Part shown: in pieces, positions 1,227 to 6,640 of the stretch
How the letters are laid out: each line of letters opens with the position of its first letter
Numbering within the stretch: position 1 is the stretch's first letter
Origin: a virus
Taxonomy: Duplodnaviria > Caudoviricetes
Reading direction: 5' to 3' (one strand)
Length of the DNA stretch: 64,000 nt
IMG/VR virus record: IMGVR_UViG_3300037312_000330
Coordinates: 64,001-128,000 of that record
Notes under the pieces: model-generated
The model's database searches: none
What the model saw: the letters and a program-made list of their open reading frames with translations, nothing else
What the model was told of the DNA's origin: nothing
Program-made: the position numbers and the translations under genes

Positions 1227-1356
1227 GCACGCTCCTTAAGGAAATCAGGCAAGCATGGTTGCTACCCGACACACTCAAAGTAGCATCTTCAGGAATGGGT
1301 CCAAAACGTCATCCGGACAGTTTGGATGTTGTAGGGATTTTGTGGAAATCAGTTAA

Positions 1357-1364
1357 TGTAAATA
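1357..1364 (+). promoter_or_regulatory. TGTAAATA motif (putative phage late-type promoter)
   Basis: Recurrent 8-mer, 52 nt upstream of the 1416 start. Confidence 0.6.
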
Positions 1365-1415
1365 ATAGGGTGCGCGGGAAATTAATCCAAGTGCATCGAA
1401 TCCACAGAGGATATT

Positions 1416-3730: not shown

Positions 3731-4219
3731 ATGACATACGAATGCCACAAACTGGACACGCAGAAGCAAGTGTTCTTCTACGAACAGGAATTCTATGTGC
3801 TGAGCAACTTTAGCTCGTTCAAAGTGTTCCACAAGGGGTGGATGTTTCAGACAAGCGAACACGCCTATCATTGGGAGAAGTTCGTTGAGAATCCACAAAT
3901 CCAACATCGCATCTGGGGTGCGCCGTCTGCACACGAAGCGTTCCAGATCGCGCAGCAAGAACGAACCAAACGTCGTCCGGATTGGGATCTAGTGAAATAC
4001 AGTATCATGAAGGACATCCTTGTTTCCAAATGCCTCCAGCATTCCTATGTGCGGAAGAAGCTCCTGGAGACAGGCGATCGCGAACTGATCGAGGATAGCT
4101 GGCGAGACGATGTTTGGGGATGGGGTCCGAACAAGGATGGTCAGAACCTCTTGGGGAAGCTGTGGATGGAGATCCGCGAGCAACTAAAGTCAACAGGCAA
4201 TCTCACGGTGGCGATCTAA
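3731..4219 (+). CDS. NADAR family (YbiA-like) N-glycosidase
   Basis: LSNF, SEHAYHWEKF, LIEDSWRDDVWG and GQNLLGKLWMEIR motifs. Confidence 0.9.
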   Translation: MTYECHKLDTQKQVFFYEQEFYVLSNFSSFKVFHKGWMFQTSEHAYHWEKFVENPQIQHRIWGAPSAHEAFQIAQQERTKRRPDWDLVKYSIMKDILVSKCLQHSYVRKKLLETGDRELIEDSWRDDVWGWGPNKDGQNLLGKLWMEIREQLKSTGNLTVAI

Positions 4220-4223
4220 GGAG

Positions 4224-4448
4224 ATGAAAATGTCAGGAACGCTTTGGTTTATCTTGGGAGCTTGTGTGGTAGGGACGGCGGTGATCAGTCTGTACGGCAT
4301 GTACAAGAACTCCGAGGCGTTCCTGCGAGGATACAAGGACTATTTGGCATCAAACTACACGAATCCGTACACGGAGGGAACGCAGGAGCATGTGGACTGG
4401 ATCGAGGGTCAGTGTGCTGCGTTTACGGAAGCGAGCCCCTGGAGGTGA
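4224..4448 (+). CDS. Small membrane-anchored protein
   Basis: N-terminal TM segment; NPYTEGTQEHVDWIEG motif. Confidence 0.65.
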   Translation: MKMSGTLWFILGACVVGTAVISLYGMYKNSEAFLRGYKDYLASNYTNPYTEGTQEHVDWIEGQCAAFTEASPWR

Positions 4449-4475
4449 ACGCGAATTGGGGGACCAATACTGTAG

Positions 4476-4727
4476 AGTATGGTGTATAGGGTCGTATAGT
4501 ATGGTGTATGTAGGGTCACCTTATCATACATATAGGGAGCAGTAGTGTGTGGGAGAAGGGGGAGGGTCGTATGTTGAACAGGTGGGTTGAACGGGTGATA
4601 GGTGCTGAAAGTACATAGTACAACTAAGCACTTTTCACCTTATCAACATATAAGGTGAAATGGAAACTGTAAATAGTGCGTAGTTAGGCTAAGTAAGCAC
4701 TTTTCACCTTATCAACATATAAGGTGA
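4476..4727. repeat. Repeat-rich intergenic region, candidate replication origin or operator
   Basis: Identical 34-bp repeats at 4625-4658 and 4694-4727, each containing the palindrome TCACCTTAT-caacat-ATAAGGTGA; degenerate half copy at 4516; direct repeats AGTATGGTGTAT(GT)AGGGTC at 4476 and 4498. Confidence 0.8.
4668..4675 (+). promoter_or_regulatory. TGTAAATA motif between the two palindromes
   Basis: Recurrent 8-mer, 80 nt upstream of 4755. Confidence 0.6.
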
Positions 4728-4754
4728 CAGCAGGAGCAGCAGTAGGACAACAAC

Positions 4755-6062
4755 ATGGGCGATACGAAAAACGACATCAAGCTAATAGACAGGTCCAGGG
4801 TATTCGTAGACGGAGGACGGTTCGGAACCAAGCTCTTCAAGAGAGGAGACGCGAGTGTCAAGATAGCAGAAAAAGATGCTAGGCAGGTACGCAAGGTAAT
4901 GCGGGCAGCCCTAGGGAACACGAGAGACGTAGAATCCAAAGAGCTACGGGTCAAGGTGATCGCCAAAGCTCCAATGTGGCTCGTACTGCGGCAAGACAGC
5001 AGGAACAAGAAGAACTGGTATCTGAACGTAGACGGGAATCCGGCCAAGTACATCCTTGGGGACAACATCTACGGTCTAGCGAATGCAGAGAAACAGATCA
5101 AATACATCTTCAGGCGCTGCATCAAAAGCGTTCAGAAGGTAGCTGGAATGGAGATGCCGTCCAGTGTGCTGCAAGACGTGGAAGACGGGAACATCTACCT
5201 GAACTCGCTAGAGTTTGCCTGCTACAGCAATCCGTTGAGAGTCGATCCAAAGAAGATCACAGGGGCGTGGCGATATATGTTCCGGCGGGGGCACATCGTT
5301 GGCGAGGACGGTAAGACACACACGCTGGAAGAGATACTTGGCGTCAAGACAAGGACCGAGTACGAGAACAGCTTCTACTGCTGGTTGCTTGCTCCAAAAC
5401 CACGGCCGAAAGCAGAAGAAGGGGAGACAGCGAGGAAGTATCCGGATGTGAAACACATAATGTTCCTTGCCTACGACAAGATCGAAGAATTGCAGTCAGG
5501 ATGGAAAGACAAGAGCAAAAACGCCATTGGTGAAGACGGTGAGGACTACATCACCGATGACAAGCACATAAAGAACGTTGCGCGCATCCAGAAGGATGAA
5601 GCACTGAACGACATCCAGAACCGAATCCGATACGACATCGGATTCACGAACGCTTGGTTCGTGCACAAGGGGCTGACCACTCTTGCCAAACTGGCGAAGC
5701 ATGTGCACAAAGAGTTCGACGGCAAGTGGCCTCTGTTCGTGCAGCACTACGTCCACATGATCTTCGAGCGTGCGTGCCTTGGCGAGATGTGGACCTTCGA
5801 TTGGCGAGAAGTGCGGGACGCGAAGCGAGCGGGGTTGAACAGAGTTCCTGGCTTGAATCCGCAGGTGCCAACGGCCGCCTACATGGTGATGGCTGAGGCG
5901 CGTGTGGAACGGACGAAGCTCACGATGGATGGCATCGACGACAAGCTAAGCGGCAATCCACGGTACTGGCAGGAGATCGCCAAGGCTGCTCCTCTGCTGT
6001 CGTCAGAAGAAGCCGAATCGCTCGGCATTGACATCAGTCGTACACGAGAGATTTCAGGATGA
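4755..6062 (+). CDS. Phage/plasmid replication initiator, gene II/X family (Rep_trans-like rolling-circle nickase)
   Basis: IDR near the N-terminus, DGNPAKYILGDNIYG, YDKIEE, IRYDIGF and C-terminal LGIDIS match the II/X family pattern (GNPxK..G.N.fG ... YxKxxE ... R.E ... GIDI). Confidence 0.75.
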   Translation: MGDTKNDIKLIDRSRVFVDGGRFGTKLFKRGDASVKIAEKDARQVRKVMRAALGNTRDVESKELRVKVIAKAPMWLVLRQDSRNKKNWYLNVDGNPAKYILGDNIYGLANAEKQIKYIFRRCIKSVQKVAGMEMPSSVLQDVEDGNIYLNSLEFACYSNPLRVDPKKITGAWRYMFRRGHIVGEDGKTHTLEEILGVKTRTEYENSFYCWLLAPKPRPKAEEGETARKYPDVKHIMFLAYDKIEELQSGWKDKSKNAIGEDGEDYITDDKHIKNVARIQKDEALNDIQNRIRYDIGFTNAWFVHKGLTTLAKLAKHVHKEFDGKWPLFVQHYVHMIFERACLGEMWTFDWREVRDAKRAGLNRVPGLNPQVPTAAYMVMAEARVERTKLTMDGIDDKLSGNPRYWQEIAKAAPLLSSEEAESLGIDISRTREISG

Positions 6063-6640
6063 AGGTACTGCCTGTTTCTGTAAAAGGTGGGCGCGTGTCG
6101 GGGGTCAGTGTGATGATGGAACGGGAATATCCGTTCTCGCTACCTCGCGTGTTTGCCATGCGTGAGAACATCGACTTCAAGAAGGAGAAGAAGCGTGGAC
6201 AGAACTTGACGTATCGCATCCACTTCTCAAGGCCACACTTTGAACCGAACCTAACAATGGACGGCGAGACTGCCGTTCCAACGAACGGCACGTGCGAAAT
6301 GCAGATTGTGTTCGGTGCTGGTGCCTTGAAGTCAGGCCAAGAGTTCACCGATAAGCTGGTTGGCAGGAAGACTGAAAAGCTTCTGACCAAGCTCTTGAAG
6401 TTTACAGAAGAGAACTCAGAAGATCTGGCTGCCTACATGACGTTCGGTCAACCGATGGAAAGCAAGCCACGAGCCTTGGTAAGCTTGATTGCCAAAGAGC
6501 GCAACGAACATTGGGCCAAGAACCTTAGAAAACAGCACAAGGAAAACAAAGAACGTGTGCGGAACATGATGAAAGAGCTTCGTGCTGACATCGCGAAGGC
6601 GCAGAAGATGCAGGCAACTAAACCGAAGGAGACAACGTGA
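6059..6640 (+). CDS. Hypothetical protein
   Basis: ATGA overlap, 193 aa. Confidence 0.75.
   Translation: MKVLPVSVKGGRVSGVSVMMEREYPFSLPRVFAMRENIDFKKEKKRGQNLTYRIHFSRPHFEPNLTMDGETAVPTNGTCEMQIVFGAGALKSGQEFTDKLVGRKTEKLLTKLLKFTEENSEDLAAYMTFGQPMESKPRALVSLIAKERNEHWAKNLRKQHKENKERVRNMMKELRADIAKAQKMQATKPKETT

What the first reader, a model, noticed from the sequence alone, without database searches (positions are those of the whole stretch)
4755..6062. Inovirus gpII/X-type rolling-circle initiator inside a large tailed phage
Seen: a full-length 435-aa ORF with the II/X family landmarks GNPAK..GDNIYG, YDKIEE, R(Y)DI and terminal GIDI, plus a Tyr (NSFY) where the catalytic TLY motif is expected. Established: this family nicks double-strand origins of filamentous phages and rolling-circle plasmids. 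Inference: it is either domesticated to start phage rolling-circle replication or concatemer formation, or it is a captured minimal replicon.
Basis: partly seen in the sequence, partly recalled or inferred. Interest (0 to 1): 0.72.

Follow-up and report, generated by a model that had tools for sequence, protein, structure and literature searches.

The report
gpII-like nicking initiator in jumbo myovirus
A 249-kb soil myovirus, and a whole clade of its large relatives, carries an apparently active copy of the DNA-nicking protein that filamentous phages and small plasmids use to start rolling-circle replication, next to a repeat-rich non-coding stretch found nowhere else in its genome, so these big phages may start or switch replication with a site-specific nick.

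Summary
The ORF at 4755-6062 is real. It encodes a Rep_trans/Phage_CRI-superfamily tyrosine nickase. It passes Pfam PF05144 (31.3 bits, cut-off 21.7), though over only 57 residues. An alignment-based model (pLDDT 85.6) has the crescent, TBP-like fold of Rep_trans and Inoviridae G2P proteins.

It is Y240 in YDKIEE (motif III, YxKxxE), which is invariant in 63 homologs and aligns with M13 gpII Tyr-197. The NSFY tyrosine is unique to this protein.

The gene is not a recent capture. Homologs (28-45% identity on the loci examined) lie only on 43-190 kb phage contigs, three of them with shared neighbours. Isolated ~193-kb Rhizobium phages carry one labelled "hypothetical protein". The one pattern scan run over 185,579 prokaryote genomes found none.

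The 306-bp upstream gap holds three copies of a motif that occurs nowhere else in the 249-kb genome. Two are exact 34-nt repeats, each forming a 9-11-bp hairpin with a 6-nt loop. Relatives have analogous repeats of different sequence. The conserved CTGTAAATAGT box between the repeats is a genome-wide promoter signal, not a nick site.

Most likely this is a resident nick-priming replication initiator with its own origin/operator. That function is inferred, not shown. The upstream repeats were noted separately in this scan, on this same genome.

The parts
4755..6062 (+). Rep gene, 435 aa (P0001): Rep_trans/Phage_CRI-superfamily tyrosine nickase. Motif N-prime D19; GNP..N..G box 94-107; motif I E153 (+A155, Y157); motif III Y240-x-K242-x-x-E245; motif IV R292-x-D294; helical C-terminal domain ~300-435.
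5472..5474 (+). Codon of Y240, the predicted catalytic tyrosine. It is invariant in 63/63 homologs, lies at the end of beta-strand 233-240, and aligns with M13 gpII Tyr-197.
   Evidence: PMC5405960
4449..4754 (+). 306-bp non-coding gap upstream of Rep: candidate origin and/or Rep operator. GC 0.43 against about 0.52 for the genome. G-over-C skew +0.35, in the top 0.08% of genome windows.
4625..4658 (+). Exact 34-nt repeat, copy A. It contains a hairpin/palindrome with an 11-bp stem and 6-nt loop CAACAT (4633-4660; DNA fold -8.5 kcal/mol).
4694..4727 (+). Exact 34-nt repeat, copy B, 69 bp after copy A. It contains a hairpin with a 9-bp stem and 6-nt loop (4704-4727; -6.4 kcal/mol) and ends 27 nt before the Rep ATG.
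4516..4537 (+). Third, degenerate copy of the same motif (left arm kept, right arm changed to ..ATATAGGGAG). This version is the best conserved between related phages.
4530..4625 (+). G-rich, C-poor tract (39 G, 8 C) between the degenerate copy and copy A. It includes the short direct repeats GTTGAACxGGTG x2.
4472..4509 (+). Two 16-nt direct repeats (GTAxAGTATGGTGTAT) 22 nt apart.
4667..4677 (+). CTGTAAATAGT box between repeats A and B: a promoter-type signal of this phage, not a nick site. CTGTAAAT occurs 19 times genome-wide, mostly just upstream of co-oriented genes.
6059..6640 (+). 193-aa ORF translationally coupled to Rep (ATGA overlap). It is conserved downstream of Rep in the close clade; function unknown.

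Best explanation
The ORF encodes an active, dimer-type Rep_trans/gpII-superfamily tyrosine nickase that is a long-standing resident gene of a clade of large soil myoviruses. The most likely mechanism follows. The protein recognises the genome-unique repeats in the 306-bp gap just upstream of its own gene. It cuts one strand at or near an extruded 9-11-bp hairpin with a 6-nt loop and stays joined to the 5-prime end through Y240. The free 3-prime OH is then extended by the phage's own replisome (DNA polymerase, DnaB-like helicase, topoisomerase II). This gives nick-primed, rolling-circle/sigma-type synthesis that feeds concatemers to the headful-type terminase. Because the two exact repeats bracket the gene's promoter box, the same binding probably also autoregulates Rep synthesis. 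Shown: family membership, intact active-site motifs, the fold, conservation and synteny in large phages, and the uniqueness and repeat enrichment of the upstream gap. Inferred: nicking activity, the site of the nick, and the role in replication.
For: Family and active site: PF05144 scores above its cut-off and phrog_702 'replication protein' hits. In 63 homologs, D19 is present in 62, Y240, K242 and R292 in 63, position 245 is E in 48 and Q in 12, and position 294 is D in 53 and E in 10. These correspond to Rep_trans motifs N-prime, III (YxKxxE) and IV (xRxE) as listed in PMC5714925. The family profile aligns M13 gpII ..VAYLKHVEL.. (Tyr-197) with ..LAYDKIEEL.. (Y240). Tyr-197 is the covalent-link residue of gIIp (PMC5405960). 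Fold: the model has pLDDT 85.6 and pTM 0.87. Y240 lies at the end of a beta-strand and E245 on the following helix, as described for RepDE (PMC4797284). Foldseek hits Inoviridae G2P and other viral proteins at E 3e-13 to 9e-4. The top PDB hits are Rep_trans 4cij, 4cwe and 4cwc. VIA gives Z 7.6 for 4cij and 4cwc, tied with TBP at 7.7; this is the TBP likeness Carr et al. reported. Atlas structure matches to Phage_CRI clusters reach TM 0.50 by query and 0.63-0.66 by hit. Residency: homologs lie on 44.5-, 119-, 94.8-, 45-, 43- and 189.7-kb phage-like contigs. L003 and L004 share the order NADAR, small ORFs, long gap, Rep, coupled ORF. Isolated Rhizobium phage RHEph12 (193.6 kb) has a member scoring 101 bits against the family profile. 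The one pattern scan of 185,579 prokaryote genomes found none. Cis element: the motif CCTWANC..ATA..TARGG occurs 3 times in 249 kb on both strands, all in this gap. L003 and L004 each have three analogous copies of diverged sequence. 10 of 13 loci have upstream direct repeats matched or exceeded by at most 4% of background windows. The hairpin dimensions (24-28 bp, 6-nt loop) match ICRII of pT181-family oriD, where RepD nicks (PMC5775427). Replisome: the phage encodes its own polymerase, helicases, topoisomerase II, ligase, UvsX-like and gp46-like proteins, and a large terminase.
Against: There is no biochemical or read-level evidence for a nick anywhere. Motif I is imperfect: E153 is present in only 39 of 63 homologs. 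PF02486 itself does not hit, and PF05144 covers only 57 residues. The Foldseek PDB E-values (6e-3) and VIA Z (7.6) are modest. The repeats bracket a promoter box, so they could be operators only. The one inter-phage conserved box that looked like the Ff nick site turned out to be a general promoter signal. Distant relatives (L022, L025) show no exact repeats upstream. A phage with a T4-type recombination set does not obviously need a nickase to initiate. Rep_trans nicking in plasmids requires negative supercoiling, which a linear injected genome would need to acquire.
Confidence: 0.6

Rival explanations
1. The nickase is active and used in replication, but the upstream repeats are only operators or promoter architecture for autoregulation. 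The true nick site lies elsewhere, for example inside the gene itself as in phage P2 gene A, or at a distant site.
For: Repeats A and B flank the CTGTAAATAGT promoter box at about -10 to -45 and +15 to +50, and L003 has the same arrangement. Repeat sequences diverge between phages, as operators and iterons do. No conserved nick-like core was found in the repeats.
Against: In the Rep_trans and gpII systems checked here, the origin holds hairpin or repeat sites where the initiator binds and nicks. Their placement next to the rep gene is recalled from general knowledge, not taken from those papers. The hairpin size matches ICRII. No other genome-unique repeat cluster was looked for systematically.
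Confidence: 0.2
2. The enzyme is a site-specific nickase with a non-initiator role: making nicks that seed recombination-dependent replication or repair, processing concatemers, or attacking host or competitor DNA (relaxase-like or anti-host function).
For: Rep_trans members also act as conjugative relaxases (NicK, Orf20; PMC5714925). The phage has UvsX-like and gp46-like recombination proteins that could use nicks or breaks. The phage has a full replisome of its own and may have other origins.
Against: Close linkage to a genome-unique repeat cluster suggests action in cis on the phage's own DNA. No transfer or packaging genes are adjacent. Nothing points to host targeting.
Confidence: 0.12
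3. The gene and its repeats are a captured or selfish mini-replicon, such as an inovirus or plasmid remnant or a satellite-like passenger, rather than part of the phage's own replication programme.
For: The family is typical of small replicons. The module (gap + Rep + small coupled ORF) is compact and self-contained. The gap has atypical composition (GC 0.43, skew +0.35).
Against: The module keeps the same position and neighbours in phages whose Reps are only 34-45% identical. No inovirus morphogenesis or ssDNA-binding genes lie nearby. The coding GC is like the rest of the window. No homolog was found on a small circular contig or in prokaryote genomes. The gene carries the phage's own promoter box.
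Confidence: 0.05
4. The protein has lost catalysis and serves only as a sequence-specific DNA-binding regulator.
For: Motif I acid is absent in 24 of 63 homologs. Only a short stretch matches Pfam.
Against: Y240, K242 and R292 are invariant, and D19 and D/E294 nearly so, across sequences down to about 20% identity. Such conservation is not expected without catalysis.
Confidence: 0.03

Closest known systems
Ff (M13/f1/fd) gene II protein, Pfam Phage_CRI PF05144
   Same: Both have the GNP..N..G box that gives the Pfam hit, a YxK motif with the covalent-link Tyr (M13 Y197 = Y240 here), an RxE/D motif, and a conserved C-terminal hydrophobic-x-D-x-S motif. Both lie directly downstream of a non-coding region with palindromes and repeats.
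   Different: The relationship is very distant: the family profile scores only 11 bits on M13 gpII. There is no gpX-type C-terminal Pfam match and no evident internal start. The host replicon is a 249-kb dsDNA myovirus with its own replisome, not a 6.4-kb ssDNA phage dependent on host Pol III and Rep helicase. No gene V or morphogenesis genes are adjacent.
pT181-family Rep proteins (RepC/RepD/RepDE) and RepSTK1, Pfam Rep_trans PF02486; structures 4cij, 4cwc, 4cwe
   Same: Both have the crescent beta-sheet fold with TBP-like topology, the catalytic Tyr on a strand followed by a helix carrying E/Q, and an acidic metal triad on separate strands. The candidate origin hairpin has the same size as ICRII (about 24 bp, 6-nt loop).
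   Different: PF02486 does not hit at E <= 10. Identity in structural alignments is about 10%. There is an extra ~135-residue helical C-terminal domain and a 20-residue insertion before the catalytic strand. The replicon is about 50-fold larger than a pT181-family plasmid (plasmid size recalled, not measured here).
Phage P2/186 gene A protein (HUH rolling-circle initiator of a tailed phage)
   Same: It is the functional precedent, recalled from general knowledge and not tested here: a tailed dsDNA phage that starts replication with a site-specific nick and a covalent tyrosine-DNA link.
   Different: It belongs to an unrelated protein superfamily (HUH, Tyr on a helix). The P2 genome is about 33 kb with the origin inside gene A. 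Here the genome is 249 kb with a T4-type replication and recombination gene set.
Unannotated homologs in isolated Rhizobium phages (RHEph12 QXV74160; RHph_N46, RHph_I42, RHph_N28_1, RHph_N42)
   Same: Same family: 101 bits against the profile, with D, GNP, YxKxxE and RxD all kept. The genomes are large (~193 kb) tailed phages from soil or rhizosphere hosts, and the gene follows a ~250-bp gap.
   Different: The RHEph12 protein is 530 aa, only about 24% identical, and annotated 'hypothetical protein'. No exact repeats were found in its upstream gap.

Membership tests
Phage_CRI (PF05144) / gpII family | Profile HMM score above Pfam's gathering cut-off | tested here: met
   31.3 bits against 21.7, E 2e-7, but only residues 69-125 against profile positions 45-101 of 232. 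36 of 63 homologs also match.
Phage_CRI (PF05144) / gpII family | Catalytic Tyr equivalent to M13 gpII Tyr-197 | tested here: met
   Profile alignment puts M13 Y197 on Y240. Y240 is present in 63 of 63 homologs. The role of Tyr-197 is taken from PMC5405960.
Phage_CRI (PF05144) / gpII family | gpX: C-terminal domain family G2P_X_C (PF05155) and an in-frame internal start | tested here: not met
   No PF05155 hit at E <= 10. I saw no GGAG-type ribosome-binding site before Met335 in the DNA. The short homologs P0038, P0040 and P0072 look like gene fragments.
Rep_trans superfamily (PF02486 and relatives) | PF02486 profile match | tested here: not met
   Only PF05144 was reported at E <= 10. The protein is therefore filed in the superfamily through Phage_CRI and the fold, not as a PF02486 member.
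Rep_trans superfamily (PF02486 and relatives) | Motif III YxKxxE and motif IV xRxE/D | tested here: met
   Y240 63/63, K242 63/63, position 245 E 48 and Q 12, R292 63/63, position 294 D 53 and E 10. Motif definitions come from PMC5714925.
Rep_trans superfamily (PF02486 and relatives) | Acidic metal-binding triad (motif N-prime D, motif I D, motif IV E) | tested here: inconclusive
   D19 62/63 and D/E294 63/63 are kept. The motif I acid (E153 here) is present in only 39 of 63, with A/S/T in the rest. The 3D clustering of these residues was not measured.
Rep_trans superfamily (PF02486 and relatives) | Crescent-shaped pseudo-twofold beta-sheet (TBP-like) with the catalytic Tyr on a strand | tested here: met
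   Model pLDDT 85.6. Foldseek top PDB hits are 4cij, 4cwe and 4cwc. VIA gives Z 7.6 for 4cij and 4cwc and 7.7 for TBP. BFVD Inoviridae G2P hits reach E 3.5e-7. Atlas TM is 0.50 by query and 0.63-0.66 by hit. The scores are moderate.
Rep_trans superfamily (PF02486 and relatives) | Site-specific nicking with a covalent 5-prime phosphotyrosine link; Mg/Mn dependence | not testable with these tools
   Needs biochemistry.
Rolling-circle replicon (Rep + double-strand origin) | A cis-acting origin with a nick-site hairpin and adjacent Rep-binding repeats close to the rep gene | tested here: inconclusive
   A genome-unique triple repeat with two hairpins lies 27-240 nt upstream. Repeats are enriched in 10 of 13 homologous loci. 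No nick has been mapped, and the repeats could be operators.
Integrated or captured inovirus | Adjacent inovirus genes (ssDNA-binding gpV, coat proteins, Zot-like assembly ATPase) | tested here: not met
   The ten neighbouring ORFs within +-4 kb give only NADAR and unnamed tailed-phage PHROGs. PF05144 occurs once in the genome.

The most novel reading that the evidence does not exclude
In this clade of 190-250-kb soil myoviruses, the gpII-like nickase and its upstream repeat cluster form the primary origin. Replication of a jumbo dsDNA phage would then be launched by a site-specific nick (rolling-circle/sigma mode), rather than by the R-loop and recombination routes known from T4. The adjacent promoter-like copy followed by an extremely G-rich, C-poor tract might help by opening the duplex (R-loop) so that the hairpin nick site is exposed on DNA that is not plasmid-like supercoiled.
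Probability: 0.3. Interest if true: 0.75.

Novelty: new variant of a known kind. Interest (0 to 1): 0.55.

Why it matters
How jumbo phages start DNA replication is largely unknown, and origins have been mapped for very few. This locus offers a concrete, testable candidate: one protein with a predictable catalytic residue (Y240) beside a 306-bp element that is unique in the genome. The family also occurs in cultured Rhizobium phages, where the gene is still annotated as hypothetical, so genetics and biochemistry are feasible. If confirmed, the Rep_trans/gpII initiator class would extend from small ssDNA phages, plasmids and ICEs to the largest tailed phages, and many 'hypothetical' genes in soil phage genomes could be re-annotated. 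If the protein proves to have another role, that would add a new use for this nickase fold.

Tried and rejected
1. CTGTAAATAGT as the nick site. It is the best-conserved box across upstream regions and shares AATAGTG with the M13 nick site. It was rejected because it recurs genome-wide in the sense orientation just upstream of genes: CTGTAAAT has 19 copies against about 2.5 for letter-shuffled 8-mers, and 12 lie within 100 nt of an ORF start. It is a promoter signal.

2. NSFY tyrosine as catalytic. Rejected because Y208 is unique to this sequence.

3. Single-sequence AlphaFold gave an unusable model (pLDDT 37).

4. Phage collection: megablast and tblastn at 1e-5 found nothing. Homologs P0012 and P0046 also found nothing. 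Only at E <= 5 did the Rhizobium phages appear, and these were confirmed with the profile.

5. The word-indexed protein search found only the query itself.

The scan of prokaryote genomes found no relative.

7. Rep plus downstream 193-aa protein complex prediction gave no verdict (score 0.01). It says nothing either way.

8. The Atlas gave no usable lead for the 193-aa protein.

9. Rfam found no match in 4200-4900. The sigma-70 and terminator scans found nothing on the + strand beyond chance.

10. The search for a T7-type RNA polymerase (PF00940), which might explain the ..TATAGGGAG copy, found nothing, but the control genomes also gave no signal, so this is inconclusive.

11. Sequencing runs: two rhizosphere metagenome runs hold the stretch, only as contigs, and both may be the source. 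No RNA holder is listed.

12. GC-skew origin mapping: the cumulative skew minimum (about 52-64 kb) and the strand switch (about 65.3 kb) lie 3-4 kb from the Rep gene. Skew follows transcription direction here, so it does not discriminate.

13. Literature: no paper in the held library links Phage_CRI or Rep_trans to jumbo or T4-like phages. Absence from this library does not prove novelty.
Full report
**1. Observation.** Window 4755-6062 (+) is an uninterrupted 435-aa ORF. Pfam gives one family, Phage_CRI PF05144 ("Replication-associated protein G2P N-terminal"), at 31.3 bits against a curated cut-off of 21.7. The match covers only residues 69-125, the GNP..N..G box. PHROGs gives phrog_702, "replication protein", at E 7e-9. 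No solved structure matches by sequence.

**2. The genome.** The window is bases 64001-128000 of a 248,884-bp IMG/VR virus record. The two ends of the record overlap by 184 bp, so the assembly closes on itself. Its large genes include:
- tail and baseplate-wedge proteins
- a large terminase
- a DNA polymerase, a large helicase and a DnaB-like helicase
- topoisomerase II and an NAD-dependent ligase
- a UvsX-like recombinase and an SbcC/gp46-like nuclease subunit
- ribonucleotide reductase

It is therefore a jumbo myovirus with a T4-type replication and recombination gene set. PF05144 occurs once in the genome. Two rhizosphere metagenome runs hold the stretch.

**3. The family.** The word-indexed search found only the query. 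An exhaustive phmmer search over 1.84 billion representatives found 73 proteins at E <= 1e-3, the best at 45% identity. An alignment of 63 full-length members (A1) has invariant N95, G107, Y240, K242 and R292. D19, G24, N91, G94, P96, N104, A155, Y157, L195 and R290 are nearly invariant. 36 of the 63 also pass a Pfam Phage_CRI scan at E <= 1e-3, and no other family appears.

**4. Active site.** The review PMC5714925 lists five Rep_trans motifs: N' (D), I (RxD), II (T/SxY/ExG), III (YxKxxE, with the catalytic Y) and IV (W/LxRxE). It notes similar motifs in Phage_CRI proteins. Column counts compare as follows:

| Motif | Residue here | Conservation in 63 homologs |
|---|---|---|
| N' | D19 | 62 |
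| I | E153 | 39 (A/S/T in the rest) |
| II | S206 | S 34, T 7 |
| III | Y240 / K242 / E245 | 63 / 63 / E 48 and Q 12 |
| IV | R292 / D294 | 63 / D 53 and E 10 |

The Tyr of NSFY (Y208) occurs in no other member; that column is S, A, C or G. A profile built from A1 aligns M13 gpII (taken from NC_003287) so that ..TLVAYLKHVELQ.. lies on ..LAYDKIEEL... This puts M13 Tyr-197 on Y240. [quoted passage not shown] 1999). An earlier MAFFT --add attempt mis-registered this region, so I rely on the profile alignment.

**5. Fold.** Without an alignment the model was useless (pLDDT 37). With A1 it reached pLDDT 85.6 and pTM 0.87. D19, E153, S206, Y240 and R292/D294 lie on beta-strands 17-21, 152-158, 206-212, 233-240 and 292-297. 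K242 and E245 lie on the helix that follows. Carr et al. describe this arrangement for RepDE and RepSTK1, with the Tyr on a strand and E196/Q184 on the adjacent helix (PMC4797284).
- Foldseek against viral models gives nine hits at E <= 1e-3, including "Replication-associated protein G2P [Inoviridae sp.]".
- Against the PDB the best rows are the Rep_trans structures 4cij, 4cwe and 4cwc, but only at E 6e-3 to 8e-2.
- Against Swiss-Prot models, the staphylococcal Rep proteins and NicK appear.
- The Foldseek-independent search ranks TBP (Z 7.7), 4cij (Z 7.6) and 4cwc (Z 7.6) together at the top. Carr et al. themselves reported TBP as the only structural neighbour of the Rep_trans sheet.
- ESM Atlas structure matches are Phage_CRI / "II/X family" clusters, at TM 0.50 by query and 0.63-0.66 by hit over about 270 residues.

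The scores are moderate, but every method points to the same superfamily.

**6. Where the homologs live.** Every homolog with enough context sits on a large, gene-dense, phage-like contig:

| Homolog | Contig size |
|---|---|
| P0002 | 44.5 kb |
| P0004 | 119 kb |
| P0012 | 94.8 kb |
| P0030 | 45 kb |
| P0047 | 43 kb |
| IMG/VR relative (L007) | 189.7 kb |

The others are on short fragments. L003 and L004 share the local order NADAR gene, small ORFs, long gap, Rep, overlapping downstream ORF. The downstream ORFs are homologous to one another. At relaxed thresholds, five isolated ~193-kb Rhizobium phages appear. The RHEph12 protein QXV74160, annotated "hypothetical protein", scores 101 bits against the A1 profile, with D, GNP, YxKxxE and RxD all intact. 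The one pattern scan of 185,579 prokaryote genomes gave no relative. The ten neighbouring ORFs give only NADAR and unnamed tailed-phage PHROGs, with no inovirus genes. This is a resident gene of a clade of large soil phages, not a recent capture.

**7. The upstream gap (4449-4754).** It contains the following elements:
- Two exact 34-nt repeats 69 bp apart (4625-4658 and 4694-4727). Each carries a palindrome with a 9-11-bp stem and the 6-nt loop CAACAT.
- A third, degenerate copy at 4516-4537.
- Several shorter direct repeats.

As DNA hairpins the two exact copies fold at -8.5 and -6.4 kcal/mol. The degenerate motif CCTWANC..ATA..TARGG occurs three times in the whole 249-kb genome on both strands, and all three copies are here. 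L003 and L004 each have three analogous copies with different sequence. In 10 of 13 homologous loci, the 300 nt upstream hold an exact direct repeat that at most 4% of background windows of the same locus match or exceed. The gap has GC 0.43 and G-over-C skew +0.35, in the top 0.08% of genome windows. One 96-nt tract has 39 G and 8 C. The six closest loci share this skew; the distant ones do not. Rfam finds nothing here. For scale, RepD nicks in the loop of ICRII, a 24-bp inverted repeat with a 6-base loop, and binds the neighbouring ICRIII (PMC5775427).

**8. A lead that failed.** The most conserved box across upstream regions is CTGTAAATAGT, exact in 4 of 9 independent loci against a null maximum of 2. 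It shares AATAGTG with the M13 nick site CTTT/AATAGTGG. But CTGTAAAT occurs 19 times in the genome, against about 2.5 for letter-shuffled 8-mers. Twelve copies lie within 100 nt upstream of a co-oriented ORF, including the DNA polymerase and topoisomerase genes. It is a promoter-type signal, and from memory it resembles the T4 late -10 element TATAAATA. It is not a nick site. In the window and in L003, the two long repeats bracket this box, so a protein bound there would also control Rep transcription.

**9. Mechanism.** Shown:
- the protein has the fold and the invariant residues of a tyrosine nickase
- it is conserved in large phages
- it sits beside a genome-unique, locus-specific repeat and hairpin cluster

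Inferred:
- Rep binds the repeats and nicks at or near an extruded hairpin
- it stays attached through Y240
- the 3'-OH primes strand-displacement synthesis by the phage replisome, yielding concatemers for packaging
- the same binding autoregulates the gene

Rivals are the operator-only reading with the nick site elsewhere, a non-initiator nickase role, a selfish mini-replicon, and an inactive regulator. The last two fit the conservation data poorly.

**10. Comparison and novelty.** By homology the closest relatives are Ff gpII and, more distantly, the pT181-family Reps. By function, the precedent for a nick-initiated tailed phage is P2 gene A, which belongs to the unrelated HUH superfamily (from general knowledge). 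I found no paper in the held library that links Phage_CRI or Rep_trans to jumbo or T4-like phages. The cultured relatives carry the gene as "hypothetical protein". Automatic resources already group such proteins, though: phrog_702, and an Atlas cluster with Phage_CRI on 18% of its members whose commonest taxon is Uroviricota. I rate it a new variant of a known kind, and moderately interesting because it gives a directly testable origin candidate for jumbo phages.

**11. Earlier notes of this scan.** Notes e1-5321951 and e1-5321938 describe the same upstream repeats on this same genome and propose an origin or operator. I had already found the repeats independently. My tests agree with those notes, and they add the genome-wide uniqueness of the repeats and the promoter status of the TGTAAATA box.

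Noticed in passing
whole genome; e.g. window 4667, 16235, 50441, 59377, 68703 (outside window), DNA polymerase gene at genome 179242: CTGTAAAT(A/G/T)(G/A) is a strongly over-represented motif co-oriented with genes (19 exact CTGTAAAT against about 2.5 expected). It usually lies 15-90 nt upstream of start codons, including those of the DNA polymerase and topoisomerase II genes. It is probably the phage's own promoter element, and from memory it resembles the T4 late promoter TATAAATA. It is shared with related phages (L004, L006, L010).
   Followed up: partly
window 4516-4625 and equivalent in L003, L004, L006, L009, L010: The best inter-phage conserved repeat copy ends in ..ATA(T/C)A(A)TAGGGAG and is followed by a very G-rich, C-poor tract (39 G, 8 C in 96 nt). 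This resembles a T7-type initiation sequence followed by an R-loop-prone transcript. No single-subunit RNA polymerase was detected, but that search was inconclusive.
   Followed up: partly
window 4455-4468; L009 and L010 equivalents: Right after the stop codon of the upstream 74-aa ORF there is a small hairpin, ATTGG-GGGA-CCAAT. In L009 and L010 it is CATTGG-GAAA/GAGA-CCAATG with GNRA-type loops. It is conserved in position across related phages; function unknown.
   Followed up: no
window 3731-4219: A NADAR-domain protein (PF08719, 103 bits; phrog_1017) sits two genes upstream of Rep and is kept in that position in L003 and L004.
   Followed up: no
genome ends (G000:C1:1-184 and 248701-248884): The first 184 bases of the record recur at its end. 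The record that IMG/VR classes as 'linear' is therefore a closed, circularly permuted assembly.
   Followed up: partly
L022 (Rhizobium phage RHEph12, MW980064.1 110307-111899): The 530-aa 'hypothetical protein' QXV74160 is a clear member of this nickase family (101 bits against the family profile). Weaker tblastn matches (E 0.6) at the same position in RHph_N46, RHph_I42, RHph_N28_1 and RHph_N42 were not checked with the profile. These GenBank annotations could be updated.
   Followed up: yes
window 1230-1415 (genome ~65.3 kb): The major transcription strand switch (minus-strand structural block to plus-strand block) and the cumulative GC-skew minimum lie 3-4 kb upstream of the Rep gene. In L013 and L024, Rep is the very first gene after such a divergent switch.
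   Followed up: partly
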